From an uncultured Candidatus Saccharibacteria bacterium (GTDB taxonomy: Bacteria; Patescibacteriota; Minisyncoccia; UBA6257; UBA11618): a DNA stretch of 64,000 nt. A program made the position numbers and the translations under genes. The notes under the pieces were generated by a model. That model saw only the letters and a list, made by a program, of their open reading frames with translations, had not been told where the DNA came from and searched no databases. The stretch covers positions 4,312-68,311 of the forward strand of contig CAYJWP010000002.1 of NCBI GenBank assembly GCA_964373915.1, read 5' to 3'. Every line of letters begins with the position of its first letter. Position 1 is the stretch's first letter. This document shows positions 10,204 through 27,859 of the stretch, piece after piece.

Positions 10204-10237
10204 ATTTTTTTAGTTGTCTATAATTAGACTCAAGTTA

Positions 10238-10786
10238 ATGAAAAAGCAAAAGAAGACAGGATTTGTTCTAAACAAGCTAACCATCGCTGCTGCTGTGGGG
10301 ATTGCTTTAGTTCTTGTTATTGTTTGGGGGGTATTTTACTGGTTAAGCAGTAATGACTTTGCTTGGTTAGAAGGCGATGATATTGAAAGTGTTATTTCCA
10401 ATAATGTTGCCGATCACACGGATCCTTCTTATCAAGCCAAGAATCTTGTTGATGGCAATAGTCGTTCAAGAGCTAGTCCTTTTGAGTGTGGGCCTTTGGA
10501 CTATACTATTCAACTTAAGAATAAGTATAAAATAGATAAGGTTGAGTTAATATGGAGAGACCAGGGAACTACAGGAGTTAATGTTCAAGAATGGTCTTTA
10601 GAGGCGGAAACTGGCAATAATCAGTGGGAGTTGATTATAGAGAAAAAGGAGGCGCCAATGGAAGAAGTCACTACTGTGAATGCTAATGTAGAAGCAACAG
10701 CGATTCGTTTAAAAGCAGCTTCTCATAGCAATCAATGCATTTCCGTCTATGAGGTGAAACTTTTCGGAGCCTTAGCAGATAAATAA
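10238..10786 (+). CDS. Membrane-anchored (type II) discoidin / F5-8 type C domain protein
   Basis: N-terminal TM helix (LTIAAAVGIALVLVIVWGVFYW). KNLVDGN...VELIWRD...EWSLE...AIRLKA...SVYEVKLFG matches the F5/8 type C pattern. Paralog of the gene at 36806-37402. ATG at 10238 preferred over the TTG at 10214. Confidence 0.55.
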   Translation: MKKQKKTGFVLNKLTIAAAVGIALVLVIVWGVFYWLSSNDFAWLEGDDIESVISNNVADHTDPSYQAKNLVDGNSRSRASPFECGPLDYTIQLKNKYKIDKVELIWRDQGTTGVNVQEWSLEAETGNNQWELIIEKKEAPMEEVTTVNANVEATAIRLKAASHSNQCISVYEVKLFGALADK

Positions 10787-12903
10787 TCCCAGAATTTTTT
10801 GAGTATTTTTTCTAGAGGAAGAATTATTCCTATAGAGAAGATTATGAGGAATGGGACTAAAGGAGCTAGATATCGGACCTCTTGCTTGCCGAATATTAAA
10901 AGGGCTATTAGTTGGGCCCACACAAACCCCCCAACGATTAAATAGTCTTTTCTTTTACTTTCGGGAGAAAATATCTTGGGCTTGGTAATAAATAGAATTG
11001 AAGAAATTATGAACAAAATAAAAATAGGCCAAAGACTTACGCCATGAGCGCTAGTATCAATTAAGCCCATAAATTTTTCTTGAAGAAAATTTAAATATGA
11101 TATTGGTTCGTCAATTATCCAGCGAATGGTGTCATGTGAGCGACCGTCCAAAATTTTATTTGTCCATTTGAATATAGCAGAATAATCTGTAGCGGATGCT
11201 ATATAATCTTGAGGTATTGGTGTGTGATTTATGAAATTAATCGTTGGATTGCTATTAGACATTAGCTCAAATTGGCCTGAAATAATTTTGTTGCGTATAA
11301 CAAAAGGAGCTATTGTGGCTGTTACCCCAGCTAAAAACACAGCTAAGTACTTAATAAATGATTTACCAAAGCTTAAAACAAACCACAGGGAGATTAAAAA
11401 GAACCACAAGGCGAAGTTGGTTCTCATTAAGAGCATTAACCCCGAGATAATTCCTGATAGAGCGACGAGAGCTAACCACCCACCTCCCTTTTTTATTTTT
11501 TTTTCTGTGAACAAAAGCATGGCCGCGGTGGCAACGGCCAGCATCGTTCCCACTGGAAAAAATTCGGTAATTTGTTGAGTGGCGTGGGGATAAGTCGCTG
11601 ACAAGACAAAGACTGGTAGTAAGAGCCAGAAGTTTTTTATTTGCCCATCTTTTTTAAATAAGTAGAGACTGATAAAAAATGTTAGTAGAGCTGTAATCAA
11701 AACTGATACAAGTTGCAGAAAAGCAATCGGAAATAATGATTCACCGACAATATAGTGGGCAATGGCTAGTGAATGGTAGTAGAGAATTTGCCAGTAATAA
11801 GAGCTTTTTTGATAAGTTTTCATTAACCAGTCATTGGTTAATTGAAGATGGCGAGCGAATGTTTCATAAACTAACGGATCGTTGCCGCCATCAAGAATAT
11901 TAAAATATTCTGATCCCATCGCTTTGGAGAGAGTGGTAGCGGTTAGATAATAAAAGATGACAAAAAATAATATCATCAGATAAGGCTTATAAGAGTAAAA
12001 CCATGTTTTCCATGATGATTTTGCTGTGAAAATATAGAATGTGAAAAAAGTAAGGGCGGCAACCAAAATCTTTATTAATAGGTCAAGTATTCCTAAATAC
12101 CAGTCAAAAACTATTCTCTCTTTCCCATATCTTTGAGGAAAAAGAGAATTTTTAATAGTGGCTTTGCTGCCAAAATTTCCCTCCCAAGATAATCTTAATT
12201 TTTTATAGGGCCTCTCTAAGGCAGTGTAGTTAATTGTTATTGGAAAAACCTTATCTTTAAAATCTTCCCCGATAAGTTCCAGAGACGCTTTGTCCAAAGG
12301 CGTTTCACTGTCATATATTTTTATGTCCTTAATATATAAACTAGCTTTGTCTTTTGTTTCTAAACCAATTGTTGATTTATTAGGCGGTACATAAATATAA
12401 CCTTTCCATTCAACGTGGAATGGAAGGGAAGCCCTACTGCCATCAATAAAATTAAAACGTTCCTTATCATTAAAGAACCAAAGGGGAAATTGTTGAACAT
12501 TAAAAAAATACCCTACTGTTTCAAAATTAATTTCCCTATCTATCCTGGTGCCATCTATTTTAGAACGAATAAATTCTGTTGATTTTTCATAATTTTTACC
12601 ATCAGCGTTGGCATAATAATAGGAACCAACCAATCCTTGGGGAAGAGATAAAAATCCAAGGGCTGCTTTACCAGCGATGAGAACTATTAAGATAGCTGTC
12701 AAATTCCAGTAAATCGCCGATTTCTTTGGCGGCTTAATGGGTAGAAAAAATAAAACAGCGCCCAAAATTGTTAGCGACAAAAGTTCGTGAAGCTGGCTTA
12801 AAGGAAAACCATCAAACCAGCCCGGCCTGCCTGGGATTAAAATAAATAAAAATAAAAGAGTAATAATTAAAAACTTGAAAGCATTAGCTCTTTTTATTAC
12901 CAT
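10747..12903 (-). CDS. Polytopic membrane protein with an N-terminal extracytoplasmic PA14 domain; putative GT-C-fold (ArnT/PMT-like) lipid-linked-sugar transferase
   Basis: At least 12 predicted TM helices. A segment of about 180 aa (GLVGSYYYANADG ... HVEWKGYIYVPPNKSTIGLETKDKASLYIKD ... LRLSWEGN) fits the PA14 pattern. Divergent from an SMR-like gene. An ArnC-like GT2 is in the locus. Confidence 0.45.
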   Translation of the reverse strand: MVIKRANAFKFLIITLLFLFILIPGRPGWFDGFPLSQLHELLSLTILGAVLFFLPIKPPKKSAIYWNLTAILIVLIAGKAALGFLSLPQGLVGSYYYANADGKNYEKSTEFIRSKIDGTRIDREINFETVGYFFNVQQFPLWFFNDKERFNFIDGSRASLPFHVEWKGYIYVPPNKSTIGLETKDKASLYIKDIKIYDSETPLDKASLELIGEDFKDKVFPITINYTALERPYKKLRLSWEGNFGSKATIKNSLFPQRYGKERIVFDWYLGILDLLIKILVAALTFFTFYIFTAKSSWKTWFYSYKPYLMILFFVIFYYLTATTLSKAMGSEYFNILDGGNDPLVYETFARHLQLTNDWLMKTYQKSSYYWQILYYHSLAIAHYIVGESLFPIAFLQLVSVLITALLTFFISLYLFKKDGQIKNFWLLLPVFVLSATYPHATQQITEFFPVGTMLAVATAAMLLFTEKKIKKGGGWLALVALSGIISGLMLLMRTNFALWFFLISLWFVLSFGKSFIKYLAVFLAGVTATIAPFVIRNKIISGQFELMSNSNPTINFINHTPIPQDYIASATDYSAIFKWTNKILDGRSHDTIRWIIDEPISYLNFLQEKFMGLIDTSAHGVSLWPIFILFIISSILFITKPKIFSPESKRKDYLIVGGFVWAQLIALLIFGKQEVRYLAPLVPFLIIFSIGIILPLEKILKKFWDYLSAKAPKSFTS

Positions 12904-12906
12904 AAT

Positions 12907-13245
12907 TTGGTGAACGTCTTCTTTCTTTTTGTTGCTCTTGTTTTAAACTCGTTTGCCCATTTTTTCCTGAAAATTGGAGCCATTCAAGGGTTTTCTTTTT
13001 ATAACCTTCGCCTGTTTGCTGGTCTGGCTATTTTTGCTGTTAGCGCGGGTTTTTACTTTTTGTCGTTAAGAACCATACCCCTATCCACAGCTTTTCCTAT
13101 TATCGTTTTTGGCAGTTTTATACTGACGAACATCGTAGCATATTTTTATCTTAATGAAAATATAAATAATTGGCAGATTATTGGTTATTTAATGATTGTT
13201 TCGGGGCTTGTGTTGGTCTTTTATCATACGGATAAAATTTTTTGA
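12907..13245 (+). CDS. SMR/EamA-like 4-TM small membrane protein (ArnE/ArnF-like flippase subunit)
   Basis: About 110 aa, four hydrophobic helices. Typical size and position for ArnE/F next to a GT-C gene. Confidence 0.45.
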   Translation: MVNVFFLFVALVLNSFAHFFLKIGAIQGFSFYNLRLFAGLAIFAVSAGFYFLSLRTIPLSTAFPIIVFGSFILTNIVAYFYLNENINNWQIIGYLMIVSGLVLVFYHTDKIF

Positions 13246-13251
13246 TTAATA

Positions 13252-14130
13252 ATGATCAATTTTTTAAGAAGGATATTTTTTTTAATCTCCGATAAACCAT
13301 ATGTTTTTTTTGAGTCAATATTTAAAGTAATTTCTTGGCCTTACGATTTTTTTGATAGGCTATATATAAAAATAGACCGTGATTTTGTTGCTCCTCATTA
13401 TATAAAACCAAAGGGATTGAATTTGATTCCACGATTAAGGTATAGAATAGGAGGCCTTTATTCTTACGGTCTATGGTCCTATCTAATAGGAGTTTTTCAA
13501 GTTTTAATTTTTGATAATATTCAAGACAAAGATCACGGCACTATTTTAGATTTTGGCTGTGGCACTGGATTTTTGGCTATCGCTAGCGAGCCTTTGGTGA
13601 GGAGGGGAGTAGAATACATTGGTATAGATGTTAGAAAGCGTGACATTAATTTTTGTCAAGATTACTATAATATGCCCCGATTTAAGTTTATTCACCATAA
13701 TGTCTATAATGCTTTTTACGCTTCTAATCAGAGAAAAGTTTCTGTGACCAGATGGCCTCTGGCCGATAATAGTGTCGATTTGGTCGTTGCTAAATCTGTT
13801 TGGACTCACCTTGATAAAGATGATGCTATGTTTTATTTTGGAGAAGTAAACAGAGTTTTGAAGAATGGTGGTAGGGCGATAATAACTCTACATCTAATTG
13901 AAGAAGGAGGCGGCAATAACCTTTTTTTTAATAAGAATATTAGGGATTCAGGAGAATGGCTTACAACTATGAAAGCCAGTTTACCAGAAATGATTGTGGC
14001 AATAACTAGTAGTGGTTTAAAGAAGATGGTACTTAATACTAATATGAAACTTATTAAAAAATATGATGGTGAGTGGAGAGGCGGGGGTGGTATTTTTTTT
14101 CAAGATATTTTAATTTTTAAAAAGCAATAA
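13252..14130 (+). CDS. Class I SAM-dependent methyltransferase
   Basis: ILDFGCGTGFLAIA motif I. Confidence 0.6.
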   Translation: MINFLRRIFFLISDKPYVFFESIFKVISWPYDFFDRLYIKIDRDFVAPHYIKPKGLNLIPRLRYRIGGLYSYGLWSYLIGVFQVLIFDNIQDKDHGTILDFGCGTGFLAIASEPLVRRGVEYIGIDVRKRDINFCQDYYNMPRFKFIHHNVYNAFYASNQRKVSVTRWPLADNSVDLVVAKSVWTHLDKDDAMFYFGEVNRVLKNGGRAIITLHLIEEGGGNNLFFNKNIRDSGEWLTTMKASLPEMIVAITSSGLKKMVLNTNMKLIKKYDGEWRGGGGIFFQDILIFKKQ

Positions 14131-14132
14131 TT

Positions 14133-15152
14133 ATGAACAATGGCAGAAGAACTGCATTTATAACAGGAGTAGCTGGTTTTCTAGGAAGTCACCTAGCTGA
14201 CAGATTACTTAAGGAGGGTTGGAAAGTTATAGGGTGTGACAATCTTATTGGAGGGTATCTTGATAATGTTTCGCCATTGGTAGAGTTTTATGTCCATGAT
14301 TGTGGTGACCGACAATTTATGGAAAAAATCATGGAAGGAGTTGATTTAGTATTTCACTGCGCCTGTACCGCTTATGAAGGTTTGAGCGTTTTCTCTCCTC
14401 ATTTTGTTACTAGAAACACTTACGATATTACAGTGTCTGTCTTGTCTGCTGCTGTTGCTAATAGAGTGAAAAGGTTTGTTTTCTGCTCTAGTATGGCTAG
14501 ATATGGAAAACAGGATAGATTGCCTTTTACTGAAGATATGAATCCCAAGCCACAGGACCCTTATGGGATAGCAAAACTGGCCGCTGAAAAAACTGTTGAA
14601 AATTTATGCAGAACTCATCGGATGGATTATGTAATAGCTGTTCCCCACAATATTATTGGTCCGCGGCAAAAATACGATGATCCTTATAGAAACGTCGCTT
14701 CTATAATGATAAATTTGATACTACAAAATAGACAGCCCGTGATTTATGGTGATGGCGAACAGAGGCGTTGTTTCTCTTTTATTGATGATGTTTCAGAGCC
14801 TATTTTTAAACTGGGAATTTTAGATAACGTTGTTGGCGAAGTAATTAACATTGGGCCGGATGAAGAAGAAGTCACAGTAAATGAACTGGCCAGGGTTATA
14901 GCCGAGGAACTTTCCTTTTCTTTGAGCCCCATTTATATGCCTGATCGCCCCAGCGAGGTTAAATTTGCTTCTTGTAGCGCTGATAAGGCGCGCAACTTTT
15001 TGGGGTATAAAACAACTGTTGATTTAAGAAGCGGCATAAAATCAATGATTGTGTACATAAAAGAAAGAAAGCCTAGACCATTTCTTTACCACATCAATCT
15101 GGAAATTATTTCTGATATTACTCCAAGGACTTGGAGGGATAAATTATTTTAA
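14133..15152 (+). CDS. NAD-dependent epimerase/dehydratase (extended SDR; UDP-glucuronate decarboxylase/UXS-like)
   Basis: FITGVAGFLGSHLADRLL Rossmann motif. YGIAKLAAE (YxxxK). CDNLIGG resembles the UXS/ArnA C-terminal domain. Confidence 0.75.
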   Translation: MNNGRRTAFITGVAGFLGSHLADRLLKEGWKVIGCDNLIGGYLDNVSPLVEFYVHDCGDRQFMEKIMEGVDLVFHCACTAYEGLSVFSPHFVTRNTYDITVSVLSAAVANRVKRFVFCSSMARYGKQDRLPFTEDMNPKPQDPYGIAKLAAEKTVENLCRTHRMDYVIAVPHNIIGPRQKYDDPYRNVASIMINLILQNRQPVIYGDGEQRRCFSFIDDVSEPIFKLGILDNVVGEVINIGPDEEEVTVNELARVIAEELSFSLSPIYMPDRPSEVKFASCSADKARNFLGYKTTVDLRSGIKSMIVYIKERKPRPFLYHINLEIISDITPRTWRDKLF

Positions 15153-15156
15153 GCCT

Positions 15157-15894
15157 ATGTATAAAGGGAAGTTGGTGTCTGTGGTTATGCCTGTTTATAA
15201 CGAGGTAGAGAACATAAGAAACGCCATTAAGTCTTTCCTTAATCAGCCTTTCGTAGATGAGGTTATTGCCGTGGATAATAATTCTTCTGATGGGAGCGAC
15301 AGTGAAATAAAAAAGACCAATGCAAATTATGTATTAGAAGAAAAACAAGGATACGGCGCAGCGCTTCAAAGGGGTATGAGAGAGGCCACCGGTGACCTAA
15401 TAGTGACTGTTGAGCCGGACGGTACATTTCTTGCAAACGATATTGAAAAACTGCTTATTTATTCTTTGGATTTTAGCGTTGTACTAGGAACAAGGACTTC
15501 TCGGGCGCTTATCTGGTCCAATGCTAATATGAGGTTTGTGTTAAGGATGGGTAATTGGGTAGTAGCCAAATTTTTGGAATATTTATTTAATGGCCCATCT
15601 CTTACTGATGTGGGTTGTACATACAAGCTTATTAACAGACAGGCTTATGAGAAAATAAAAAATAGTTTCACCGTTGATGGTTCTTGGTTTTCGCCAGAAT
15701 TTATGATTAGAATTCTTCAATATAATATTTCATGCGTTGAGGTGCCGGTCCATTATTGCCCAAGAAAAGGATATTCGAAAATAACGGGAGAGACTTATAA
15801 GGTGGCATTTCTTGGATTAAAGATGATTGTTTTTATTATTGGACAGCGTTTCAAATATTTTATGATGAATAAGAAAATAATTAACAAATTATGA
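15157..15894 (+). CDS. GT2 polyprenol-phosphate glycosyltransferase (ArnC/GtrB/DPM1-like)
   Basis: VVMPVYNE ... AVDNNSSDGS ... EPDGTF motifs. About 245 aa, typical of the family. Confidence 0.75.
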   Translation: MYKGKLVSVVMPVYNEVENIRNAIKSFLNQPFVDEVIAVDNNSSDGSDSEIKKTNANYVLEEKQGYGAALQRGMREATGDLIVTVEPDGTFLANDIEKLLIYSLDFSVVLGTRTSRALIWSNANMRFVLRMGNWVVAKFLEYLFNGPSLTDVGCTYKLINRQAYEKIKNSFTVDGSWFSPEFMIRILQYNISCVEVPVHYCPRKGYSKITGETYKVAFLGLKMIVFIIGQRFKYFMMNKKIINKL

Positions 15895-17054
15895 AAATTA
15901 TTCTGGTAAGCGTGGAAATTGAACCTAGATCTGGCTGGGGGACAACGACCCATAATTATGCTCTTTATTTTTTTAGACAAGGCATCCCTTTTACTTTATT
16001 GTTGCCAAAATCGGCTAAGAGAATGGTTTTCCCTTATATAAAAGACGTAAAATATGTTTTGCCTAATCTACCTCTTTCTTTTAGCAATGTTAGAGATTGG
16101 TGGAAGATATTTAAATTATGGCCGGGCGAAATGGATTCAATGAGCGATTCTTCTTTGATTCACTGTCTAGTGGATTTTCCTTATGCTGCTTGGTCTTATC
16201 ATCTTGCTAAGAAAATGAAATTGTCTTTGGTATTCGGCGCCCATGGCACTTATTCGGTGGCTCCGTTTGTCAGATTTCCCGATCGTTATCTGATGTTGCC
16301 TACTTATAGGGGAGCGGCGGCTGTTATGGCAGTTAGTAATTTTACAGCAAATAAAATGAGAGAGGTTTCTGGCTATGATCGTGATATAGATGTAGTTTAT
16401 AATCCGATCAGCCATCCAGTTGATTGTCCAGCCGAGGAGGAAGATTGGATTAATGAAAATTTTTCTCCGGAGGAAAAAGTTATTTTAAGCATTGGTCAGA
16501 TAAAAAAAAGAAAAGGCCTGGATATTTTAATTAAGGCAATGCCTAAAATTCTTGGCAAGATTCCAAACGCTAGGCTGGTAATTGGCTCAAGCATTGGTGA
16601 CGAGAGTATTTATAAGAATTTAGCTGAAGATTTGGGAATTAGTAAAAATATTTTAATAGTTAAGCCTTTAACTTCGGAAAAATTAGCAGGTTTATATTCA
16701 AGGTGTAATATTTTCGCTCTTACTTCCAGATATATAGATCATCAGTTTGAAGGATACGGCGTTGTTTATGGAGAGGCGGGTCTTTTAAAAAAACCAGTGG
16801 TAGCGGCTGATTCGGGCGGCGTAAGCGATGCCGTTCGTGACAATGAAACAGGTATTTTAGTGCCGGAAAATAATGTTGAAGCTACCGCCGAGGCAATTGT
16901 TAAGATTTTAAGCGATGACTCATTAGCTAGGAGATTAGGCGAGGGCGGGTTTAAATTTGCTAACGAGCGCAATTGGGATAATTATATGAAAAAAGTTTTA
17001 ACAATTTATGAAACAGTTTCGACAAATCATTCCAAGCTCTATAAGGTGGTTTAG
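15891..17054 (+). CDS. Glycosyltransferase family 4 (GT-B)
   Basis: YGVVYGEAGLLKKPVVAADSGGVSDAV motif. ATGA overlap with the upstream gene. Confidence 0.75.
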   Translation: MKIILVSVEIEPRSGWGTTTHNYALYFFRQGIPFTLLLPKSAKRMVFPYIKDVKYVLPNLPLSFSNVRDWWKIFKLWPGEMDSMSDSSLIHCLVDFPYAAWSYHLAKKMKLSLVFGAHGTYSVAPFVRFPDRYLMLPTYRGAAAVMAVSNFTANKMREVSGYDRDIDVVYNPISHPVDCPAEEEDWINENFSPEEKVILSIGQIKKRKGLDILIKAMPKILGKIPNARLVIGSSIGDESIYKNLAEDLGISKNILIVKPLTSEKLAGLYSRCNIFALTSRYIDHQFEGYGVVYGEAGLLKKPVVAADSGGVSDAVRDNETGILVPENNVEATAEAIVKILSDDSLARRLGEGGFKFANERNWDNYMKKVLTIYETVSTNHSKLYKVV

Positions 17055-18030
17055 TGTTTCCAGGATACCCAGAACACTAGCGAGCACCGTATTGTTATTT
17101 CTTGCTATAAAAAAAATTAATTTAAAAGCAGACAAAGTTGCTGTTGCTTTTTCTATTTCAGAAAAGCAGGCGCGTTTGTGGCTATATTTTTGTCAGAAAT
17201 TTTTACCAAATAATCAATGGGATTTTTTGATTGTTGATTGCGCCGGTGATATGAATCCGGAAAATTTTCAAGGGGCGCAAGTCGTTAGGTTTTTGAATTT
17301 TTCTCACGGCTTTAAAATAGATTTTTTTCTCCGGCGAATTTTAAAACACAAGCTAGTTTTTATTGGAGACGATGACAAATATCTTATTTCTGAAATTAAT
17401 CAATGCGTTGATCAGTTTAGTAAAGATGAGAAAGCCGCCGTGGTTTCTTTTTGTCCCAGAGTGTATTATCGTCTTCGTTTTGGCAATGAGGAGTTTTCGG
17501 CCATGGGCTCATATTCTTTAATAATTAAAAGGAGAATATTTTTGGATAACAAGTTATCTTTTAGGCCAGTTAATAAAATATCCACGAGAAGATTTTTCTA
17601 TAAAGAAAAACCGGGATATAAACGCAATCTAAAATTTGATACCGGAGACTTTGCCAATGAGCAATTAATAGCGATGGGATACAAAATTATTTTTGCGAAT
17701 GAAAATACAGTTGTAGGTTTTGACGGTTTGAGCCAGACGAGGATACTATTGTTGTTTTGCGGAAAGGAAAAAATTGCGGCAATGCTTGCCTCGGCTGATA
17801 AGTATCGGAGTGACGGAGCGGGAGCTAATTTAAGGCGAGCTTATGGGATTGCTAAAGTTGACTATCTTTTTAGTAATATTTTTCACGAAGAGCCAGAGTT
17901 AAATAAGGGCTTTAGTGAACAGGAATTAAGATTTCTAGTTAACAACAACAAACAGGTAGCGCAAGAAGAAAAATTAGAGGTTTTGAGTTATTTTGACCAT
18001 CTTGATAGGGTAAGCTCACATCTTTTATGA
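17008..18030 (+). CDS. Hypothetical protein (possible GT-A-like, DDD motif)
   Basis: ORF only, 340 aa. Overlaps the upstream gene by 47 nt. No firm motif apart from FIGDDDKY. Confidence 0.35.
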   Translation: MKQFRQIIPSSIRWFSVSRIPRTLASTVLLFLAIKKINLKADKVAVAFSISEKQARLWLYFCQKFLPNNQWDFLIVDCAGDMNPENFQGAQVVRFLNFSHGFKIDFFLRRILKHKLVFIGDDDKYLISEINQCVDQFSKDEKAAVVSFCPRVYYRLRFGNEEFSAMGSYSLIIKRRIFLDNKLSFRPVNKISTRRFFYKEKPGYKRNLKFDTGDFANEQLIAMGYKIIFANENTVVGFDGLSQTRILLLFCGKEKIAAMLASADKYRSDGAGANLRRAYGIAKVDYLFSNIFHEEPELNKGFSEQELRFLVNNNKQVAQEEKLEVLSYFDHLDRVSSHLL

Positions 18031-19379
18031 AAACTGTTTTTTTGATTTTGCCTCGGAGGCATTCTATACGTTATATGGCATCTTCTGGGGCTCTAAATTA
18101 TCTAGCGGATAACAAAGATATTAAATTAATTATCTTAACTTCCTTTAAGGATGATTTTTTTATAAAAGAATGGACTGGAAAAGGAGCAATTATTGAATTC
18201 ATTCCGCGCAGAGAGGGAACGGAAAGCATTATTGATTTACTTGTTTCTTCATCAATGAGGTATCTGCTAAGCATCCAGTATGATTTGGCTACTATTAATG
18301 CCAAGATTAGGATGAAAGGAAGGTTATACCATTTTTTATACCGTTTACTTGTTAATTTACTTTCACCATTAGCGCCATTTTTGCGAAGTGGTTTAAGGTG
18401 GCTTGATTTGAATTTAATCTCTGCTTTTTTGGATAAGCAATATAGGTTTTTATTAAAAAAACATAAGCCGGATTTAGTAGTAGTGCACTCTGTTTTTGAA
18501 GCAACTGCGTATCCAGTGAGCCGTGCCGCTTATCGCAGCTCAATTCCTTTGGTGGGTATAGTTATTAGCTGGGATAATTTAACTGGCAAGGGAGAGACTC
18601 ATGCGCATTTTAATAAATTAATCGTCTGGGGGCAGGCAATGAAACAGCAGGCGATTGCTTACCATGGTTATAGAGAAAATCAGATAGAAATGGTGGGCAC
18701 CCCCCAATTTGATTTTTTTGTAAGTCTTAGAGATAAGATTCCTTCTAGAGAGGATTTTTTGAAAAGTAAAAATTTGGATCCAGAAAGAAGATTAATTACT
18801 TATACCACTTTTTCCCAGAGGGTGGGTGGCAATGAAAAAGAATTTCATGTAATCAATCTAATTCACAACAGTATTATAAAAAATATTTTTTTAAAACCAT
18901 GTCAATTAATTGTGAGGGTTTACGAAAAGAGCATACAGGAGCTATATCAACCATTTGAAAGACTGCCTTTTGTGGCAGTGGATTATGCCCGGCGTTTACC
19001 ATCAGGTTTAAACTATAAAGAGGCGGATGAATATTTTATGCTTAATTTAGCGGCAACAGTAAAATATGCCGATGTGGTGGTCAATTTTTCTTCAACCACA
19101 AGCATTGATGCTTTTATTTTTGATATTCCTACTATCAGCTCTGCTTATAGCAAACGTAATTATTGGAATGAAACCCATCATTTTAGATATTTAGTCAAGA
19201 GTGGTGGCGTGATGGTGGCTCACACTGATGACCAGCTGATTAATTTTATTAATGAATACTTAGTTAATCCGGCTTCAGACACGGATAATAGAAAAAAAGC
19301 GCTTGAGGAGCAGTGTTTTAGAGTTGATGGCCGGGCAGGGGAAAGGATTGCCAATATTGTGTTAAATAGTTTAAAATGA
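18027..19379 (+). CDS. TagB/TagF-like polyol-phosphate transferase family protein (paralog of 24452-25822)
   Basis: VGTPQFDFF resembles the G.PR.D motif of CDP-glycerol glycerophosphotransferases. The N-terminus MKTVFLIL is shared with its paralog. Confidence 0.4.
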   Translation: MKTVFLILPRRHSIRYMASSGALNYLADNKDIKLIILTSFKDDFFIKEWTGKGAIIEFIPRREGTESIIDLLVSSSMRYLLSIQYDLATINAKIRMKGRLYHFLYRLLVNLLSPLAPFLRSGLRWLDLNLISAFLDKQYRFLLKKHKPDLVVVHSVFEATAYPVSRAAYRSSIPLVGIVISWDNLTGKGETHAHFNKLIVWGQAMKQQAIAYHGYRENQIEMVGTPQFDFFVSLRDKIPSREDFLKSKNLDPERRLITYTTFSQRVGGNEKEFHVINLIHNSIIKNIFLKPCQLIVRVYEKSIQELYQPFERLPFVAVDYARRLPSGLNYKEADEYFMLNLAATVKYADVVVNFSSTTSIDAFIFDIPTISSAYSKRNYWNETHHFRYLVKSGGVMVAHTDDQLINFINEYLVNPASDTDNRKKALEEQCFRVDGRAGERIANIVLNSLK

Positions 19380-19398
19380 GCTTTGTAAGGAGAAGTTT

Positions 19399-20211
19399 AT
19401 GAAGGGTAGAGAGCGGGTGGTTTTGATAACTGGGGACTGCCTTCGCCATTCCTATTTGGCGAATCGTTTAGCTGAAAGCGTAGAAGTGGTTGGAGTTGTG
19501 TGTGAAAAAAAGAGGCTCTTACCTAGTGGCCTTGCTGAAGAAAATATTATTATTAGAGAGCATTTTAAAAAAAGAGATGAAGCTGAGCAAAAGCTACTTG
19601 GAGAATACGGGAAGTTGACTTCCTTCTCTGATAGAGTGCTTTATGTGCAGCACGGAGAGTCAAATAGTAATTATGTTTTTGATTGGATAAAGACAAAAAA
19701 TCCTTCAACCGTTGTTCTTTACGGTTGTAGCATTATCAAAAATCCCCTTCTAAGTTTTTATTCTGGCCGTGTAGTGAATATGCATTTGGGGCTCTCTCCT
19801 TATTACCGAGGCGCCGGAACTAATTTTTGGCCGCTAGTTTTTAATGAGCCGGAGTGCGTTGGCGCAACGATTCATTTAGCAACTCTGCAAGTGGACGCTG
19901 GCGATATTCTAATACAGGTTAGGCCGGAGATTGAGCTGACAGACGACTGCTATAGTATGGGATGTAAGACTATTATTAAGGCGGCTGGGGTTTTGCCGGA
20001 AGCCGCGCTTAATTACTTGAAGGGGAAAATAAAAGCAGAGGCGCAGAAAAATGGCGGTCGATTGTTTAGAAACAAAGATTTTAACGCTCAAGCAGTAGAA
20101 AAAATGAAGGCCAACTTTTCTAATGGCATGATAGCTCAATTTCTTGCCGATAAGGACAGTCGTTTACAAAAATATCCTATTATTGAACAAAGTGAAGTTC
20201 TTAGCGGTTAA
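19399..20211 (+). CDS. Formyltransferase (Fmt/ArnA N-terminal/PurN fold), likely sugar N-formyltransferase
   Basis: NMHLGLSPYYRGAGTNFWPL matches the N.H.SLLP..RG formyltransferase motif. Confidence 0.6.
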   Translation: MKGRERVVLITGDCLRHSYLANRLAESVEVVGVVCEKKRLLPSGLAEENIIIREHFKKRDEAEQKLLGEYGKLTSFSDRVLYVQHGESNSNYVFDWIKTKNPSTVVLYGCSIIKNPLLSFYSGRVVNMHLGLSPYYRGAGTNFWPLVFNEPECVGATIHLATLQVDAGDILIQVRPEIELTDDCYSMGCKTIIKAAGVLPEAALNYLKGKIKAEAQKNGGRLFRNKDFNAQAVEKMKANFSNGMIAQFLADKDSRLQKYPIIEQSEVLSG

Positions 20212-21151
20212 CTATCATTATTTCAGTAAAAAAAAAGAGGATGGCTTTGGTATTTATCCCACGTCCATTTCTGATTTTAAGGCCCAGCTATTACAGTTGG
20301 GCCGCGATTTTTCTTTTATTAGCCAGAATGAATTGATTGAAGCAATTGATGGGGTAAGTGATTTGCCGGAGAAATCTTGTTTGATAACTTTTGATGACGG
20401 TTTGAGGTCGCAGTATGAGCAGGCGTTGCCGGTGATAGACGTTTTAGGAATCCCGGCAGTTTTTTTTGTTAATACTTTGCCATATATTAATGGCAAGCTT
20501 TTATCGGTGCATAAAATTCATTGGTGCCGCCACTTTCTTTCTCCCAAAAAATTTATTACTGAAGTTTGTGATGCTTATAATTTTTTTACGGGCCAAGAAT
20601 TTAACCAACATCTTTTTTCTTTAAGCGATGATGACTTACTTAAACAATATCGATATGACGATCTTGATTCGGCAAGGATAAAGTTTGCGTTGAATAATGC
20701 CCTTGAAGAAGATCTGCGCAATCAGATAATAAATGTTATTTTTAAAAAAATTATCAATAACGAGCGGTCTTTTTGCCGAGATTTTTATATTAACCGGAGA
20801 GATTTAAAAAAATTGTATAAAAGAGGTTATCTTGGGACTCACACTCACAGCCATCAGCCTCTGGCATCTTTTGGAGCCGATCGGACCACAAAAGAGATTG
20901 TTCATTCTCTTGACTCACTGGCTGACATTCTAACTATTAGTAGGCAAGTTTTAGAAATAAGAGGGATTTCTTATCCTTACGGCAATTCCCAATCGGTTTC
21001 TCCGGAAACCGGAGCTATTGCTAAGAGTTTGGGTTTGAAGTTTGGTTTTACCATGGAAAGAAGTTTAAATAGTACCTTACAAGAACCGTTATTATTAGCA
21101 CGGGTTGATACTAATGATGTGATTGGCGGGAAAAAGGAATTGTTACTTTAA
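20144..21151 (+). CDS. Polysaccharide deacetylase (NodB homology) family, ArnD-like deformylase candidate
   Basis: LAVNYHYF and TFDDGLRSQ NodB motifs. Start may be the GTG at 20189. Lies directly downstream of the formyltransferase. Confidence 0.6.
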   Translation: MPIRTVVYKNILLLNKVKFLAVNYHYFSKKKEDGFGIYPTSISDFKAQLLQLGRDFSFISQNELIEAIDGVSDLPEKSCLITFDDGLRSQYEQALPVIDVLGIPAVFFVNTLPYINGKLLSVHKIHWCRHFLSPKKFITEVCDAYNFFTGQEFNQHLFSLSDDDLLKQYRYDDLDSARIKFALNNALEEDLRNQIINVIFKKIINNERSFCRDFYINRRDLKKLYKRGYLGTHTHSHQPLASFGADRTTKEIVHSLDSLADILTISRQVLEIRGISYPYGNSQSVSPETGAIAKSLGLKFGFTMERSLNSTLQEPLLLARVDTNDVIGGKKELLL

Positions 21152-22464
21152 TGAATAATTTTATAAAACAGAAAACTATCGCTATTATTCCCGCGCGTGG
21201 CGGTTCGAAAAGGTTGCCGGGAAAAAATATTAAACTGTTAAATGGTAAGCCATTAATTTGGTATGCCATTCGGGATGCTAAAGAAAGCAAGTGCATAGAT
21301 GACTTTTTTGTTTCTACCGATAATCGAGAAATTGCCGAAACAGCAGAGCAATATGGAGCTAAAATAATTAATCGTCCTCCAAAATTAGCGACAGATATTG
21401 CAACTACGGATAGCGTAGTAAAACACGCGGTTGAATATCTTAAGTTCAATGGGAATGTGGTTATATTACAGCCGACAGCGCCCTTGAGAACGGCGAAGGA
21501 TATTGAGGTATGCGCGGACAAATTTTTTCAAAACGAGCCCTCTATTTTAGTTACCATTGGACCCAGAGGGAGCTACACCGGATCGGTTTACATATTTAAT
21601 ACGAAAGATTTTGCAGAAGCTGATTATTGTTGGAAAGAACTTACTTATAAAAATCCTTATGTGTTTATGATGGATAAGTATCATGAAGCGGCTAATGTTG
21701 ATTATTTGGAAGATTTTCTAGCGGCAGAGAGATTTTTAAAGGGCGGATTGTCTGTGGCTGATTTTTCCTTTGCCGATCATTTATCCAAGGAGATTCAATT
21801 TGCGGACAGAATAGGGGATTTACATTTTTATATGTCAGAGAGAGATGGTCTTGATAATTTGCGGCATAAAGATGAGGTTTTGTATAAGAAATTAAGAGAC
21901 AATCCTGAACGAGTGAGATTGTTATCTGAAATTGCTCATGGAAAAAATTGTTTGGATGTCGGTTGCAGTGACGGTCTAATAACTTTGGAAATTGCTAAAA
22001 GAAGCGGCAGTCAAGTATTGGGTATAGATATCAGGGAGGAGGCGATTGATAATGCCCGACGCTTGGCAGGTTCGTTTTCAGATGACGTAAGGCAACGAGT
22101 AGAGTTTGCTGTTTTAAAACCTGAAGAATTGGTGGCAGCCGGAAGGAAGTTTGATACGATGTATTTTACTGAAGTTCTAGAACATATTGATTACCGACAC
22201 CATTCCCAAACCATAGAAAATTTGGTAAAACTAATGCATTCTGGGTCTAATTTGATTATTTCTATCCCCAACCGCTATCCGGCACAGCATTATGAACAAG
22301 AGGGTCGCCATCGTTGGGATGCACCGGCTCACTTGGCCCATTTTAGTAAATTAAGTTTTGAGGACTTGCTTAAAGGGTATTTTAGAGAGGTGAACTTTAT
22401 CACTTTGACTCAAGATAAAAGGCCTCAAGATGGGATTTGGTTAATTTGCGATTGTAAACTATGA
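21151..22464 (+). CDS. Fusion: acylneuraminate cytidylyltransferase (NeuA/CMP-nonulosonate synthetase) + class I SAM methyltransferase domain
   Basis: N-terminus AIIPARGGSKRLPGKNIK (CMP-NeuAc/CMP-Kdo synthetase motif). C-terminus LDVGCSDGLITLEIA ... FTEVLEHI (methyltransferase motifs I and post-I). Confidence 0.7.
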   Translation: MNNFIKQKTIAIIPARGGSKRLPGKNIKLLNGKPLIWYAIRDAKESKCIDDFFVSTDNREIAETAEQYGAKIINRPPKLATDIATTDSVVKHAVEYLKFNGNVVILQPTAPLRTAKDIEVCADKFFQNEPSILVTIGPRGSYTGSVYIFNTKDFAEADYCWKELTYKNPYVFMMDKYHEAANVDYLEDFLAAERFLKGGLSVADFSFADHLSKEIQFADRIGDLHFYMSERDGLDNLRHKDEVLYKKLRDNPERVRLLSEIAHGKNCLDVGCSDGLITLEIAKRSGSQVLGIDIREEAIDNARRLAGSFSDDVRQRVEFAVLKPEELVAAGRKFDTMYFTEVLEHIDYRHHSQTIENLVKLMHSGSNLIISIPNRYPAQHYEQEGRHRWDAPAHLAHFSKLSFEDLLKGYFREVNFITLTQDKRPQDGIWLICDCKL

Positions 22465-24442: not shown

Positions 24443-24451
24443 ATATTTTTT

Positions 24452-27822: not shown

Positions 27823-27859
27823 TTTTCAGCGGCTTAACAGCCGCCTTTTTTTAAAAGAA

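What the first reader, a model, noticed from the sequence alone, without database searches (positions are those of the whole stretch)
12907..21151. Arn-like (formyl-protected amino-sugar on polyprenol phosphate) gene set without an aminotransferase
A formyltransferase (19399-20211) sits next to a NodB-family deacetylase (20144-21151). The locus also holds a UXS/ArnA-C-like SDR (14133-15152), an ArnC-like GT2 (15157-15894), an SMR-like ArnE/F candidate (12907-13245) and a GT-C-like membrane protein (10747-12903). Together these mirror the ArnA/ArnD/ArnC/ArnE-F/ArnT logic of formylate, transfer to lipid, deformylate, flip and transfer. No DegT/ArnB-type aminotransferase lies within the locus; the only aminotransferase in the window is class III and lies outside (47277-48479). 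The substrate could be a protein or a glycan rather than lipid A.
Basis: partly seen in the sequence, partly recalled or inferred. Interest (0 to 1): 0.6.

Follow-up and report, generated by a model that had tools for sequence, protein, structure and literature searches.

The report
Two glycan modules, not Arn
The genes are real, but they form two separate sugar-pathway units inside a large surface-glycan island of a probable candidate-phyla-radiation bacterium: a sialic-acid-like (nonulosonic acid) unit whose deacetylase and formyltransferase remodel the sugar's N-acyl group, and a lipid-carrier unit feeding a membrane glycosyltransferase; this is not a polymyxin-resistance-type Arn pathway.

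Summary
The Arn-like reading that links them is not supported. In 80 species-level genomes that carry a relative of the formyltransferase, a CE4 deacetylase lies next to it on the same strand in 72 (48 of the 49 loci with full flanks). The pair travels with a PseF-like cytidylyltransferase (43/49), a hydrolysing UDP-GlcNAc 2-epimerase NeuC (40/49), NeuB (28/49) and BFO_1060-like transferases. It never travels with the 718-aa membrane protein or the SMR-like protein (0/49), and rarely with the GT2 (4/49). In the window the pair sits directly upstream of those same nonulosonic-acid genes. A DegT aminotransferase is near the pair in only 9/49 loci, so its absence here is normal: the amine most likely comes from de-N-acetylation. 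A 2026 preprint links such a pair in Ca. Kuenenia to CMP-nonulosonic acids with a free amine, an N-formyl and an O-methyl group. Separately, the 718-aa protein is a PA14-bearing PMT_2-type GT-C. Together with the DPM1/ArnC-like GT2, an epimerase-type SDR and a 4-TM protein it forms a generic polyprenyl-phosphate-sugar glycosylation unit. The host is probably Patescibacteria, which lack lipid A.

The parts
10214..10786 (+). Module A accessory: single-TM protein with an F5/8 type C (discoidin, sugar-binding) domain
   Evidence: Pfam F5_F8_type_C 3.3e-11. One N-terminal TM helix. A homolog (32-33% identity) follows the GT-C in L084 and L087.
10747..12903 (-). Module A: PA14-bearing PMT_2-type GT-C glycosyltransferase. 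It has 3 TM helices, an extracytoplasmic PA14 domain (residues ~90-260), then about 10 TM helices. The conserved motif is GNDPLVYETFAR, with D342 invariant.
   Evidence: 5/7 close and 28/40 distant full-length relatives hit PF13231 PMT_2 (best 2.8e-15); PA14 best 7.4e-12. The family profile hits PA14 structures at 1.5e-7. AF2 model pLDDT 91, pTM 0.91. Foldseek finds PA14 lectin domains at ~2e-4, and the membrane part matches only STT3 (6e-3) or ArnT (earlier poor model). 9,885 relatives at E<=1e-3.
12907..13245 (+). Module A: 112-aa, 4-TM DMT/SMR-superfamily protein; candidate flippase for the lipid-linked sugar
   Evidence: EamA 5.7e-5, Multi_Drug_Res 9e-4. EbrA 5.9e-7, ArnF 9.7e-7, ArnE 7.4e-4, all far below the curated cut-offs. 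Four hydrophobic segments. EmrE only at E 0.57 in PDB.
13252..14130 (+). Class I SAM-dependent methyltransferase; module assignment uncertain
   Evidence: Methyltransf_11 7e-14. No relative in the formyltransferase loci.
14133..15152 (+). Module A (probable): extended SDR of the nucleotide-sugar 4-epimerase type
   Evidence: Best PDB hits: UDP-Glc 4-epimerase 4zrm 1.8e-42, 6dnt 1e-38, UDP-GlcA 4-epimerase 6zl6 5.7e-32, WbgU 1e-29. UXS ~1e-23; ArnA-C 2.5e-14. Motif SSMARYG...YGIAK lacks the Glu of the SSSEVYG enzymes. Ends 4 nt before the GT2 start.
15157..15894 (+). Module A: soluble DPM1/ArnC/PpgS-like GT2; candidate polyprenyl-phosphate sugar synthase
   Evidence: NCBIfam: AglJ 2.5e-21, dolichyl-P-hexose transferase 1.4e-14, PpgS 1.5e-11, ArnC 2.9e-8, each aligned over ~200 residues. 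PDB: ArnC 7e-8, P. furiosus DPMS 5.8e-6. No TM helix.
18027..19379 (+). Module B: BFO_1060-family / 'surface carbohydrate biosynthesis' GT-B-like protein; candidate nonulosonic-acid transferase
   Evidence: NF046086 BFO_1060 1e-25, TIGR04396 1.7e-9. Its family is the commonest non-biosynthetic neighbour of the formyltransferase (39/80 loci, 91 copies).
19399..20211 (+). Module B: N10-formyl-THF-dependent sugar N-formyltransferase of a distinct ~265-aa clade
   Evidence: Formyl_trans_N 2.1e-14. Invariant N127/H129/D166. 1,653 homologs at ~50% identity. 330 relatives in species-representative genomes. Profile vs PDB: ArnA-N 61 bits, GDP-perosamine formyltransferase 54, PurN 51, LgrA 51, Fmt 45.5, PseJ 44.6.
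20192..21151 (+). Module B: cytoplasmic CE4 (NodB-fold) metallo-deacetylase, paired with the formyltransferase (20-nt overlap)
   Evidence: Polysacc_deac_1 4.6e-14. PgaB/IcaB are the best hits and there is no ArnD hit. Invariant H9, D68, D69, H217, H221, R304. No signal peptide or TM. Adjacent and co-directional with the formyltransferase in 72/80 loci, median gap 54 bp.
21151..22464 (+). Module B: PseF-like cytidylyltransferase domain fused to a SAM methyltransferase
   Evidence: CTP_transf_3 3.4e-26 plus Methyltransf_23 9.8e-17. PseF 2.3e-34 over residues 10-135.
22461..23294 (+). Module B: NeuB-family nonulosonic acid synthase (no SAF domain)
   Evidence: NeuB 6.4e-52. TIGR03569 2.1e-56, PseI 4.2e-39, both below cut-off. 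277 aa against a family median of ~336.
23291..24442 (+). Module B: hydrolysing UDP-GlcNAc 2-epimerase (NeuC/LegG type)
   Evidence: TIGR03568 NeuC_NnaA 378 bits, above the curated cut-off of 235.9. ATG 23291 overlaps the NeuB stop codon.
24452..25822 (+). Module B: second BFO_1060/TagF-like transferase paralog
   Evidence: Glyphos_transf 4.6e-7. BFO_1060 9e-10. Same neighbour family as 18027-19379.
25802..26521 (-). Module B: full-length PseF-like CMP-nonulosonic acid synthetase
   Evidence: TIGR03584 PseF 2.4e-48 over 221/222 model positions. A homolog is present in 64/80 formyltransferase loci at a median distance of 1.8 kb.

Best explanation
The region holds two independent modules of one large surface-glycan island. 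They are probably co-transcribed and feed the same envelope glycan.

Module B (18027-26521) makes and transfers an N-acyl-remodelled nonulosonic acid.
- NeuC hydrolyses and epimerises UDP-GlcNAc (or a 2,4-diamino analogue) to the free 2-acetamido-mannose-type sugar.
- NeuB condenses that sugar with PEP.
- A PseF-like enzyme activates the product as the CMP-sugar.
- The cytoplasmic CE4 deacetylase strips an N-acetyl group to expose a free amine.
- The formyltransferase puts a formyl group from N10-formyl-THF on a free amine.
- The methyltransferase fused to the cytidylyltransferase O-methylates the sugar.
- The BFO_1060-like proteins transfer the sugar to the glycan.
- Because the amine comes from GlcNAc's own nitrogen by deacetylation, no aminotransferase is needed. 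The order (deacetylate, then formylate) is the reverse of Arn.

Module A (10214-15894) is a three-component lipid-carrier system.
- The epimerase-type SDR supplies a 4-epimer nucleotide sugar.
- The soluble DPM1/ArnC/PpgS-like GT2 loads it on polyprenyl phosphate.
- The 4-TM protein flips it.
- The PA14-PMT_2 GT-C transfers it outside the membrane to a glycan or surface protein, with the PA14 domain and the F5/8C partner binding the acceptor.

Shown here: domain identities, conserved catalytic residues, synteny statistics and the GT-C family assignment.
Inferred: substrates, the order of steps, the flippase role and the acceptor.
For: - Formyltransferase-deacetylase pairing: 72/80 loci, always on the same strand, both gene orders, median gap 54 bp.
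- In 49 loci with at least 8 kb on both sides: deacetylase 48, cytidylyltransferase 43, NeuC 40, NeuB 28, BFO-like 27, GT2 4, GT-C 0, SMR-like 0.
- Unbiased ORF clustering gives the same ranking. The recurrent operon is NeuB>NeuC>CTP3>DAC>FT>BFO across Planctomycetota, Bacteroidota, Chloroflexota and CPR.
- DegT is present in only 9/49 loci, and 16/49 have NeuB+NeuC without DegT.
- Catalytic residues are intact in both enzymes. The deacetylase has no signal peptide.
- NeuC passes the curated cut-off.
- One formyltransferase homolog is fused to 5-formyl-THF cyclo-ligase.
- Literature: CMP-NulOs with a free amine, an N-formyl and an O-methyl group in Ca. Kuenenia, with a deacetylase + formyltransferase pair inside its Leg-type cluster (bioRxiv 10.64898/2026.04.20.719630).
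- Module A: PMT_2 in 28/40 relatives. Every GT-C relative examined is divergently paired with a maker of a lipid-phospho-sugar, either GT2+SDR (L084, L087) or UbiA (L085, L088). The GT2 aligns over its full catalytic domain with AglJ, Dol-P-hexose synthase, PpgS and ArnC.
- The nearest named relatives of a housekeeping gene are Patescibacteria.
Against: - No biochemistry exists for any member of this formyltransferase or deacetylase clade. The Kuenenia link is itself a gene-cluster inference, and I could not test whether the Kuenenia genes belong to the same families.
- All genes from 12907 to 25822 are co-directional with overlaps or gaps of at most 19 nt and no detectable internal terminator. 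Physical linkage of the two modules in this genome is therefore real.
- The SDR and GT2 are only 29-33% identical to their counterparts in GT-C loci, no closer than to SDRs and GT2s in some formyltransferase loci. The SDR's module assignment rests on adjacency and motif only.
- The SMR-like protein is below every curated threshold.
- NeuB is below the curated cut-offs and lacks the SAF domain.
- Whether deacetylation and formylation hit the same nitrogen (Neu-type) or different nitrogens (Leg/Pse-type, with the dehydratase and aminotransferase elsewhere) is unresolved. Three of the seven CPR loci do carry DegT nearby.
Confidence: 0.8

Rival explanations
1. A UDP-amino-sugar is N-formylated by the formyltransferase, loaded on polyprenyl phosphate by the GT2, deformylated by the CE4 enzyme, flipped by the SMR-like protein and transferred by the GT-C.
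For: - All six genes lie in one co-directional string.
- With the family profile, the formyltransferase's best solved relative is ArnA-N (61 bits).
- The GT2's best PDB hit is ArnC (7e-8).
- ArnF and ArnE appear among the small protein's weak hits.
- The GT-C belongs to the same Pfam family as ArnT (PMT_2).
Against: - There is no route to the amine: no ArnB/DegT in any frame and no Ugd. The SDR lacks the decarboxylase Glu and is closest to 4-epimerases.
- The deacetylase gives no ArnD hit at E<0.01.
- The formyltransferase-deacetylase pair co-occurs with the GT-C in 0/49 loci and with the GT2 in 4/49, but with NulO genes in about 40/49.
- GT-C relatives occur without a formyltransferase or CE4 deacetylase.
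- The ArnA-N margin over other formyltransferases is small (61 vs 54/51 bits).
- The probable host (Patescibacteria) has no lipid A.
Confidence: 0.03
2. Hybrid pathway. The deacetylase and formyltransferase convert UDP-HexNAc to UDP-HexNFo (via UDP-HexN). The SDR epimerises it, the GT2 loads HexNFo on polyprenyl phosphate and the GT-C transfers it. This explains the missing aminotransferase but keeps the six genes in one pathway.
For: - Contiguity in one gene string.
- The SDR resembles UDP-GlcNAc 4-epimerases (6dnt 1e-38, WbgU 1e-29).
- The GT2 resembles PpgS, the polyprenyl-P-GalNAc synthase (1.5e-11).
Against: - The formyltransferase-deacetylase pair is almost never accompanied by a DPM1-like GT2 or a GT-C elsewhere (4/49 and 0/49).
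- The pair is separated from the GT2 by three other genes, yet abuts the cytidylyltransferase/NeuB/NeuC genes.
Confidence: 0.05
3. Leg/Pse-type variant of the NulO reading. The sugar is a 5,7-diamino nonulosonic acid whose 4,6-dehydratase and DegT aminotransferase lie outside the window. The formyltransferase replaces LegH/PseH and formylates the transaminase-derived amine. The deacetylase independently frees the other nitrogen, as proposed for Ca. Kuenenia.
For: - The Kuenenia CMP-NulOs carry one free amine and one N-formyl group on a Leg-type skeleton.
- PseJ is a precedent for a formyltransferase that replaces PseH (PMC11040635).
- 9/49 loci, including 3 of 7 CPR loci, have DegT plus an SDR near the pair.
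- Both cytidylyltransferases score best against PseF.
Against: - No DegT or dehydratase-type SDR anywhere in 64 kb that otherwise holds the whole island.
- 40/49 loci lack DegT within 8-10 kb, and 16/49 have NeuB+NeuC with no DegT.
- The window's NeuB scores higher against NeuB_NnaB (191 bits) than against PseI (135 bits).
Confidence: 0.3

Closest known systems
Deacetylase + formyltransferase pair in the legionaminic-acid-type cluster of Ca. Kuenenia stuttgartiensis (SugarBase preprint, bioRxiv 10.64898/2026.04.20.719630)
   Same: A deacetylase and a formyltransferase are embedded among neuB, the legG/neuC-type epimerase and the CMP-synthetase genes. O-methylation of the CMP-NulO matches the methyltransferase fused to the cytidylyltransferase here. 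GDP-heptose is used for the surface glycan, and HddA and HddC-GmhB are present in this island.
   Different: The Kuenenia cluster includes legB and legC (dehydratase and aminotransferase); this window has neither. Homology between the Kuenenia genes and these families was not testable here. The enzymes are uncharacterised in both cases.
PseJ, the sugar N-formyltransferase of the Pse5Ac7Fo pathway (PDB 6ci2/6ci4; cited in PMC11040635)
   Same: A Formyl_trans_N enzyme that puts an N-formyl group on a nonulosonic-acid precursor. It is among the window protein's better PDB hits (4e-7).
   Different: The relation is remote (profile 44.6 bits, below ArnA-N, PurN and LgrA). PseJ is ~190-217 aa against 270 aa here. 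PseJ acts on a transaminase-derived amine and has no partner deacetylase.
Arn pathway (ArnA/ArnB/ArnC/ArnD/ArnE-F/ArnT) for L-Ara4N on lipid A
   Same: It uses a formyltransferase, a CE4-fold hydrolase, a DPM1-like GT2, small DMT/SMR-type flippase subunits and a PMT_2-family GT-C. Weak sequence hits to ArnA-N, ArnC and ArnF are seen here.
   Different: There is no ArnB, no Ugd and no ArnA-C-type decarboxylase. The CE4 enzyme is PgaB-like, not ArnD-like. The formyltransferase and deacetylase are genomically tied to NulO genes and not to the GT2/GT-C. The likely order of chemistry is deacetylate then formylate. The host probably has no lipid A.
Three-component polyprenyl-phosphate-sugar glycosylation systems: GtrA/GtrB/Gtr*, CsbB/GtcA/YfhO, and mycobacterial PpgS (Rv3631)/Rv3632/Rv3779 (recalled from established knowledge, not tested here)
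   Same: A cytoplasmic DPM1-like GT2, a small multi-TM protein and an extracytoplasmic GT-C encoded together. PpgS is a TM-less GT2 of similar size and is among the GT2's best NCBIfam hits.
   Different: The GT-C here carries an inserted PA14 lectin domain after TM3 and is paired with a membrane-anchored F5/8C protein. The small protein is SMR/EamA-like, not GtrA-like. An epimerase and a methyltransferase are built into the unit.

Membership tests
Arn (L-Ara4N lipid A modification) pathway | ArnB-type (DegT family) aminotransferase that makes the UDP-4-amino-pentose | tested here: not met
   No DegT among the ORFs scanned. tblastn with 11 DegT proteins against the window gives a best E of 0.29.
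Arn (L-Ara4N lipid A modification) pathway | ArnA C-terminal-type UDP-GlcA oxidative decarboxylase (UXS-like SDR with a catalytic Glu) | tested here: not met
   The SDR's best hits are 4-epimerases (1.8e-42); ArnA-C scores 2.5e-14. It has SSMARYG in place of S-T/S-S-E-V-Y-G.
Arn (L-Ara4N lipid A modification) pathway | ArnD-type deformylase | tested here: not met
   The NCBIfam scan gives PgaB/IcaB/PdaA hits only, with no ArnD model at E<0.01. PDB hits are PgaB/BpsB/IcaB.
Arn (L-Ara4N lipid A modification) pathway | ArnA N-terminal-type formyltransferase | tested here: inconclusive
   The catalytic triad is present. With the family profile ArnA-N is the top PDB hit (61 bits), but GDP-perosamine formyltransferase (54), PurN (51) and LgrA (51) are close. 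NCBIfam ArnA scores 40.7 bits against a cut-off of 777.
Arn (L-Ara4N lipid A modification) pathway | Formyltransferase and deformylase co-inherited with the ArnC/ArnT-type genes | tested here: not met
   Of the 49 full-flank loci: GT-C 0, SMR-like 0, GT2 4.
CMP-nonulosonic acid biosynthesis module (NeuC/NeuB/CMP-synthetase) | Hydrolysing UDP-GlcNAc 2-epimerase | tested here: met
   TIGR03568 scores 378 bits, above the cut-off of 235.9.
CMP-nonulosonic acid biosynthesis module (NeuC/NeuB/CMP-synthetase) | NeuB-family PEP-condensing synthase | tested here: met
   Pfam NeuB scores 176.9 bits against a cut-off of 22.1. The subtype is unresolved: NeuB_NnaB 191 bits and PseI 135 bits are both below their equivalog cut-offs, and the SAF domain is absent.
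CMP-nonulosonic acid biosynthesis module (NeuC/NeuB/CMP-synthetase) | CMP-sugar synthetase (CTP_transf_3) | tested here: met
   Two copies: 25802-26521(-), PseF-like, 164.7 bits over the full model (cut-off 205.7); and the N-terminal domain of 21151-22464. Both pass the Pfam cut-off but fall below the PseF equivalog cut-off.
CMP-nonulosonic acid biosynthesis module (NeuC/NeuB/CMP-synthetase) | The formyltransferase-deacetylase pair is a conserved constituent of such modules | tested here: met
   cytidylyltransferase 43/49, NeuC 40/49, NeuB 28/49; the operon NeuB>NeuC>CTP3>DAC>FT recurs in several phyla.
GT-C glycosyltransferases, PMT_2 (ArnT/PMT-like) family | Sequence membership in PF13231 | tested here: met
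   The window protein alone gives no hit. 5/7 close relatives (35-42% identity, E down to 1e-144) and 28/40 profile-found relatives hit PMT_2, best 2.8e-15.
GT-C glycosyltransferases, PMT_2 (ArnT/PMT-like) family | Polytopic fold with a conserved acidic motif in an extracytoplasmic loop near the N-terminal TM bundle | tested here: inconclusive
Polyprenyl-phosphate sugar synthases (DPM1/GtrB/ArnC/PpgS-type GT2) | Similarity over the full catalytic domain to characterised members, not only over the generic N-terminal GT-A half | tested here: met
   AglJ 7-207, Dol-P-hexose transferase 11-209, PpgS 8-209 and ArnC 5-203 all align over the full domain; other GT2 families align only to about residue 100. 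PDB: ArnC 5-207. All scores are below the equivalog cut-offs.
ArnE/ArnF or SMR small flippases | Score above the family threshold | tested here: not met
   ArnF 29.3 bits (cut-off 99), ArnE 19.7 (92), EamA 23.9 (28.2), Multi_Drug_Res 20.2 (23.7). Size and the 4-TM topology fit.

The most novel reading that the evidence does not exclude
The CE4 deacetylase and the formyltransferase form a two-enzyme 'N-acyl swap' on a sialic-acid-type (single-nitrogen, NeuC/NeuB-derived) nonulosonic acid, with no aminotransferase involved. The products would be CMP-neuraminic acid with a free amine and/or CMP-N-formylneuraminic acid, which are bacterial sialic-acid variants not yet described. The module is spread over at least 330 species in many phyla, including CPR bacteria and an archaeon. 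In this genome it decorates a methylated, heptose-containing surface glycan.
Probability: 0.35. Interest if true: 0.65.

Novelty: new variant of a known kind. Interest (0 to 1): 0.45.

Why it matters
N-acyl groups on nonulosonic acids set surface charge and control recognition by phages, lectins and immune systems. The enzymes that diversify them are largely unknown. This analysis shows that a CE4 deacetylase and a distinct formyltransferase clade form a tightly coupled pair, widespread across phyla, inside CMP-nonulosonic-acid operons. The pair is usually not accompanied by an aminotransferase. That gives a concrete and testable route to free-amine and N-formyl sialic-acid-like sugars, and cultured carriers (Salinimicrobium, Christiangramia, Zunongwangia, Salegentibacter) are available for testing it. 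It also shows that a probable CPR bacterium invests about 40 kb in an elaborate surface glycan, including a PA14-bearing GT-C with lectin-like partners. For annotation, it warns against reading 'formyltransferase + NodB deacetylase + GT2 + GT-C' as Arn.

Tried and rejected
- The exact-sequence look-up of the formyltransferase gave no contig. The source contig is an unnamed 72.7-kb NCBI record, so the rest of the genome could not be searched for DegT or Ugd.
- The first AF2 model of the 718-aa protein, built from 7 sequences, was poor (pLDDT 56) and its fold search was not significant. It was replaced by a 40-sequence model.
- The promoter/terminator scan of 10-27.5 kb was uninformative: counts were near the shuffle expectation and all sites lay inside ORFs.
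- I tried to tie the window's SDR and GT2 to the SDR and GT2 directly beside the GT-C in L084 and L087 by orthology. This failed: there was no hit, or only 23% identity. They resemble the second SDR-GT2-DUF2304 unit of those loci at 29-33% identity, no better than SDRs in some formyltransferase loci.
- hhalign of the 638-aa membrane paralog against the GT-C family found nothing.
- I considered that the formyltransferase might be housekeeping Fmt or PurN. I rejected this because of its context, its size and a distinct clade of 1,653 members.
- I considered that the deacetylase might act on an exported polymer, as PgaB and IcaB do. This is disfavoured because it has no signal peptide or TM helix and because Kuenenia's CMP-level modifications have been reported.
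- A literature search for Kuenenia S-layer NulO papers returned nothing in the held library.

Full report
**1. Observation**

Pfam and NCBIfam confirm the following domain content:
- Formyl_trans_N at 19399-20211.
- Polysacc_deac_1 (NodB/CE4) at 20144-21151.
- An extended SDR at 14133-15152.
- A GT2 at 15157-15894.
- A 112-aa four-TM protein at 12907-13245, with sub-threshold EamA, SMR and ArnF similarity.
- A 718-aa polytopic membrane protein at 10747-12903(-), with no Pfam hit of its own.

No DegT-type aminotransferase is encoded in any frame of the 64 kb. The class-III aminotransferase at 47277-48536 belongs to the ArgD family and is housekeeping.

Three corrections are needed:
- The deacetylase most likely starts at GTG 20192 (MKFLAVNYHY...), overlapping the formyltransferase by 20 nt.
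- The SDR is of the 4-epimerase type, not UXS/ArnA-C-like.
These are flanked by two BFO_1060/TagF-like transferases and a second PseF-like cytidylyltransferase.

**2. Setting**

Bases 1-40000 form a ~36% GC glycan island. Beyond it the DNA is ~47% GC and carries housekeeping genes. The island holds the following:
- Many GT4 glycosyltransferases and methyltransferases.
- GDP-D-glycero-D-manno-heptose genes (HddA and an HddC-GmhB fusion).
- A Wzx-type flippase.
- A TagF/kinase/nucleotidyltransferase unit.

It ends next to a 2,306-aa surface protein built of Ig-like repeats. The nearest named relatives of the ArgD-like protein (45-50% identity) are Patescibacteria, Ca. Vogelbacteria and Ca. Niyogibacteria. 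A relative of the GT-C comes from a 0.1-µm groundwater fraction. The host is therefore probably a CPR bacterium. Such bacteria have no outer membrane or lipid A (established knowledge), which rules out a literal Arn function.

**3. The formyltransferase and deacetylase belong to a nonulosonic-acid (NulO) module**

The formyltransferase is a member of a distinct clade of proteins about 265 aa long. The clade has 1,653 members at roughly 50% identity, and the PurN/ArnA-type Asn-His-Asp triad is invariant in it (N127, H129, D166). One member is fused to 5-formyl-THF cyclo-ligase.

No solved relative is close:
- With the single sequence, the best hits are the LgrA F-domain (5e-9) and PseJ (4e-7).
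- With the family profile, the best hits are ArnA-N (61 bits), GDP-perosamine formyltransferase (54), PurN (51), LgrA (51), Fmt (45.5) and PseJ (44.6).

The enzyme is not a housekeeping Fmt or PurN, but sequence alone does not say what it formylates.

Context does. A scan of one genome per species found 330 relatives, and 80 loci were fetched with 10-kb flanks. tblastn with every window protein gave these results:
- The deacetylase is adjacent in 72/80 loci, always on the same strand. Both gene orders occur (44 DAC>FT, 28 FT>DAC), with a median gap of 54 bp between the alignments.
- Of the 49 loci with at least 8 kb on both sides, 48 have the deacetylase, 43 the PseF-like cytidylyltransferase, 40 NeuC, 28 NeuB and 26-27 each BFO_1060-like paralog.
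- Only 4 of the 49 have a relative of the GT2, and none has the 718-aa or the SMR-like protein.

An unbiased clustering of all ORFs in these loci gave the same ranking. It put a DegT aminotransferase in only 11/80 loci (9/49 with full flanks), and 16/49 have NeuB and NeuC with no DegT.

Gene maps show a recurrent operon, NeuB>NeuC>CTP3>DAC>FT>BFO-like, in Planctomycetota, Bacteroidota, Chloroflexota, Acidobacteriota and CPR. The pair also occurs in one Hadarchaeota archaeon.

The deacetylase family keeps the CE4 metal and catalytic set: D68, D69, H217-x3-H221, YPYG, R304 and an N-terminal invariant His. I read that His as PgaB-like from memory of PgaB; this was not tested here. The enzyme has no signal peptide or TM helix, so it is a cytoplasmic enzyme. 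It gives no ArnD hit.

**4. Mechanism proposed for the NulO module**

The shown facts fix the cast, and the order of steps is inferred:
- NeuC gives the free 2-acetamido sugar.
- NeuB condenses it with PEP.
- A PseF-like enzyme makes the CMP-sugar.
- The deacetylase exposes an amine.
- The formyltransferase formylates an amine.
- The fused methyltransferase O-methylates the sugar.
- The BFO_1060-like proteins transfer it.

A 2026 preprint reports CMP-NulOs with one free amine, one N-formyl group and an O-methyl group in Ca. Kuenenia stuttgartiensis. [quoted passage not shown] N-formyl pseudaminic acids and the formyltransferase PseJ are known precedents (PMC11040635).

It is in fact the usual state of this module: the nitrogen is GlcNAc's own, uncovered by deacetylation. 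The chemistry is deacetylate-then-formylate, the reverse of Arn's formylate-then-deformylate.

What remains open is whether both enzymes act on the same nitrogen of a Neu-type sugar (an acyl swap giving Neu or Neu5Fo) or on different nitrogens of a Leg/Pse-type sugar whose dehydratase and aminotransferase lie elsewhere. Three of the seven CPR loci have DegT nearby. Free neuraminic acid is unstable unless C2 is locked (established knowledge), which favours action on the CMP- or UDP-linked form.

**5. The 718-aa protein and its neighbours form a separate lipid-carrier module**

The word-indexed search found only seven relatives. The exhaustive profile search found 9,885 at E <= 1e-3. Five of the 7 close relatives and 28 of 40 sampled distant full-length relatives hit PF13231 PMT_2 (best 2.8e-15), and 9/40 hit PA14 (best 7.4e-12).

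The family profile hits PA14 structures at residues 163-264. With the 40-sequence alignment AlphaFold gives pLDDT 91 and pTM 0.91. Foldseek then finds sugar-binding PA14 domains (~2e-4). For the membrane part it finds only GT-C enzymes, at weak scores (STT3 6e-3, TM ~0.3); ArnT was the top hit for the earlier poor model.

The architecture is three TM helices, an external PA14 domain, then about ten TM helices. An invariant Asp (D342) sits in a G-D-D-W-L-x-Y-E-x-x-A-R motif in the loop after TM5.

In four other contigs, every relative is divergently paired with an enzyme that makes a lipid-phospho-sugar. This is either an SDR plus a DPM1-like GT2 (L084, L087, where a membrane-anchored F5/8C protein also follows the GT-C as in the window) or a UbiA prenyltransferase (L085, L088). 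None of these contigs has a formyltransferase or a CE4 deacetylase.

The window's GT2 aligns over its whole catalytic domain with AglJ, Dol-P-hexose synthase, PpgS and ArnC, and it has no TM helix.

The SDR's best solved relatives are UDP-Glc, UDP-GlcNAc and UDP-GlcA 4-epimerases. It has Ala where UXS, ArnA-C and dehydratases have the catalytic Glu.

Gtr, CsbB/GtcA/YfhO and PpgS/Rv3632/Rv3779 are equally good analogues (from established knowledge).

Caveats:
- The small protein is below every family threshold.
- The SDR and GT2 are only 29-33% identical to counterparts in GT-C loci, no closer than to some in formyltransferase loci. The SDR's assignment to this module rests on its 4-nt spacing from the GT2 and on its motif.

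**6. Weighing the Arn-like reading**

In its favour:
- All genes from 12907 to 25822 are co-directional, with overlaps or gaps of at most 19 nt and no evident terminator.
- ArnA-N, ArnC and ArnF appear among the weak hits.

Against it:
- There is no route to an amino-pentose: no ArnB, no Ugd and no decarboxylase-type SDR.
- The CE4 enzyme is not ArnD-like.
- The pair never co-occurs with the GT-C elsewhere, while it co-occurs strongly with NulO genes.
- The host probably has no lipid A.

I put the Arn-like reading at about 3%. A hybrid, in which UDP-HexNFo is loaded on the lipid carrier, gets about 5%.

**7. Novelty and score**

Both modules are of known kinds. The NulO module with a CE4 deacetylase and this formyltransferase clade has been noticed only at gene-cluster level, in one preprint, and it has no biochemistry. 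Its breadth (330 species-level genomes), its tight pairing and its usual independence from an aminotransferase are shown here. The PA14-PMT_2 GT-C with F5/8C partners is an unusual architecture inside a large family.

I rate the finding 'new variant of a known kind', with interest 0.45. The most novel reading still open is an aminotransferase-free acyl swap that yields free-amine or N-formyl neuraminic acid. I give it a probability of about 0.35.

Noticed in passing
window 1-40000 vs 40001-64000: A ~36% GC glycan-biosynthesis island of about 40 kb abuts ~47% GC housekeeping DNA. This suggests horizontal acquisition or a strong compositional bias in the island.
   Followed up: partly
window 3855-6091 (-): GDP-D-glycero-D-manno-heptose genes: the HddA kinase (419 bits) and an HddC guanylyltransferase-GmhB phosphatase fusion. 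The Kuenenia S-layer glycan, which carries the free-amine/N-formyl NulO, also uses GDP-heptose.
   Followed up: partly
window 21151-22464 (+): A PseF-like cytidylyltransferase domain (only about 135 residues match) is fused to a class I SAM methyltransferase. A second, full-length PseF-like cytidylyltransferase lies at 25802-26521(-). Which of the two activates the NulO is unknown.
   Followed up: partly
window 22461-23294 (+): NeuB is 277 aa and lacks the C-terminal SAF domain that most homologs in related loci carry (median ~336 aa). NeuC starts at ATG 23291, overlapping the NeuB stop codon.
   Followed up: partly
window 34906-36822 (-) and 37636-39444 (-), with 36806-37402 (-): Two paralogous polytopic membrane proteins (34% identity) have no Pfam family and no hhalign link to the GT-C family. 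One is followed by a single-TM F5/8 type C protein, mirroring the pairing of the GT-C with an F5/8C protein at 10214-12903.
   Followed up: partly
window 39513-46433 (-): A 2,306-aa protein with Big_5, SdrD_B, CarboxypepD_reg and fn3 repeats lies at the edge of the island. It is a candidate glycosylated surface or S-layer-like protein.
   Followed up: no
window 24452-32276: Two TagF-like phosphotransferases, a short-chain SDR, an FGGY (XylB-like) kinase, a nucleotidyltransferase and an Fe-ADH together look like a polyol- or ketose-phosphate (teichoic-acid-like) module.
   Followed up: no
window 17008-18030 (+): A 340-aa soluble protein with no family match sits between the GT4 and the BFO_1060-like gene. 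It has no relatives in the 80 formyltransferase loci.
   Followed up: no
P0011 (homolog of the formyltransferase): A 448-aa protein fuses this formyltransferase clade to 5-formyltetrahydrofolate cyclo-ligase (PF01812). This supports a folate-derived formyl donor.
   Followed up: no
L085 7098-10151 and L088 4978-7876: Relatives of the PA14-PMT_2 GT-C pair with a UbiA prenyltransferase plus a small protein instead of a GT2. This is reminiscent of the decaprenyl-phospho-ribose/arabinose donor route.
   Followed up: no
L084 8000-11770, L087 7716-9666, L088 11288-12307: A recurrent unit of SDR + GT2 + DUF2304 (a 113-aa membrane protein) occurs in the same loci as the GT-C. The L084 SDR2 has the UXS/decarboxylase motif SSSEVYG, unlike the window's SDR.
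   Followed up: partly
L056 (Ca. Hadarchaeota MAG), 1-10528: The formyltransferase-deacetylase pair, with a cytidylyltransferase and a 2-hydroxyacid dehydrogenase, also occurs in an archaeal MAG, so the module crosses domains.
   Followed up: no
formyltransferase loci generally (e.g. L026, L034, L062): AsnB-like amidotransferases (17/80 loci, median 2.4 kb away) and D-2-hydroxyacid dehydrogenases (13/80) often accompany the module. This hints at further N-acyl variants such as amidino or glyceroyl-type groups. The window has a partial AsnB at 69-848.
   Followed up: no
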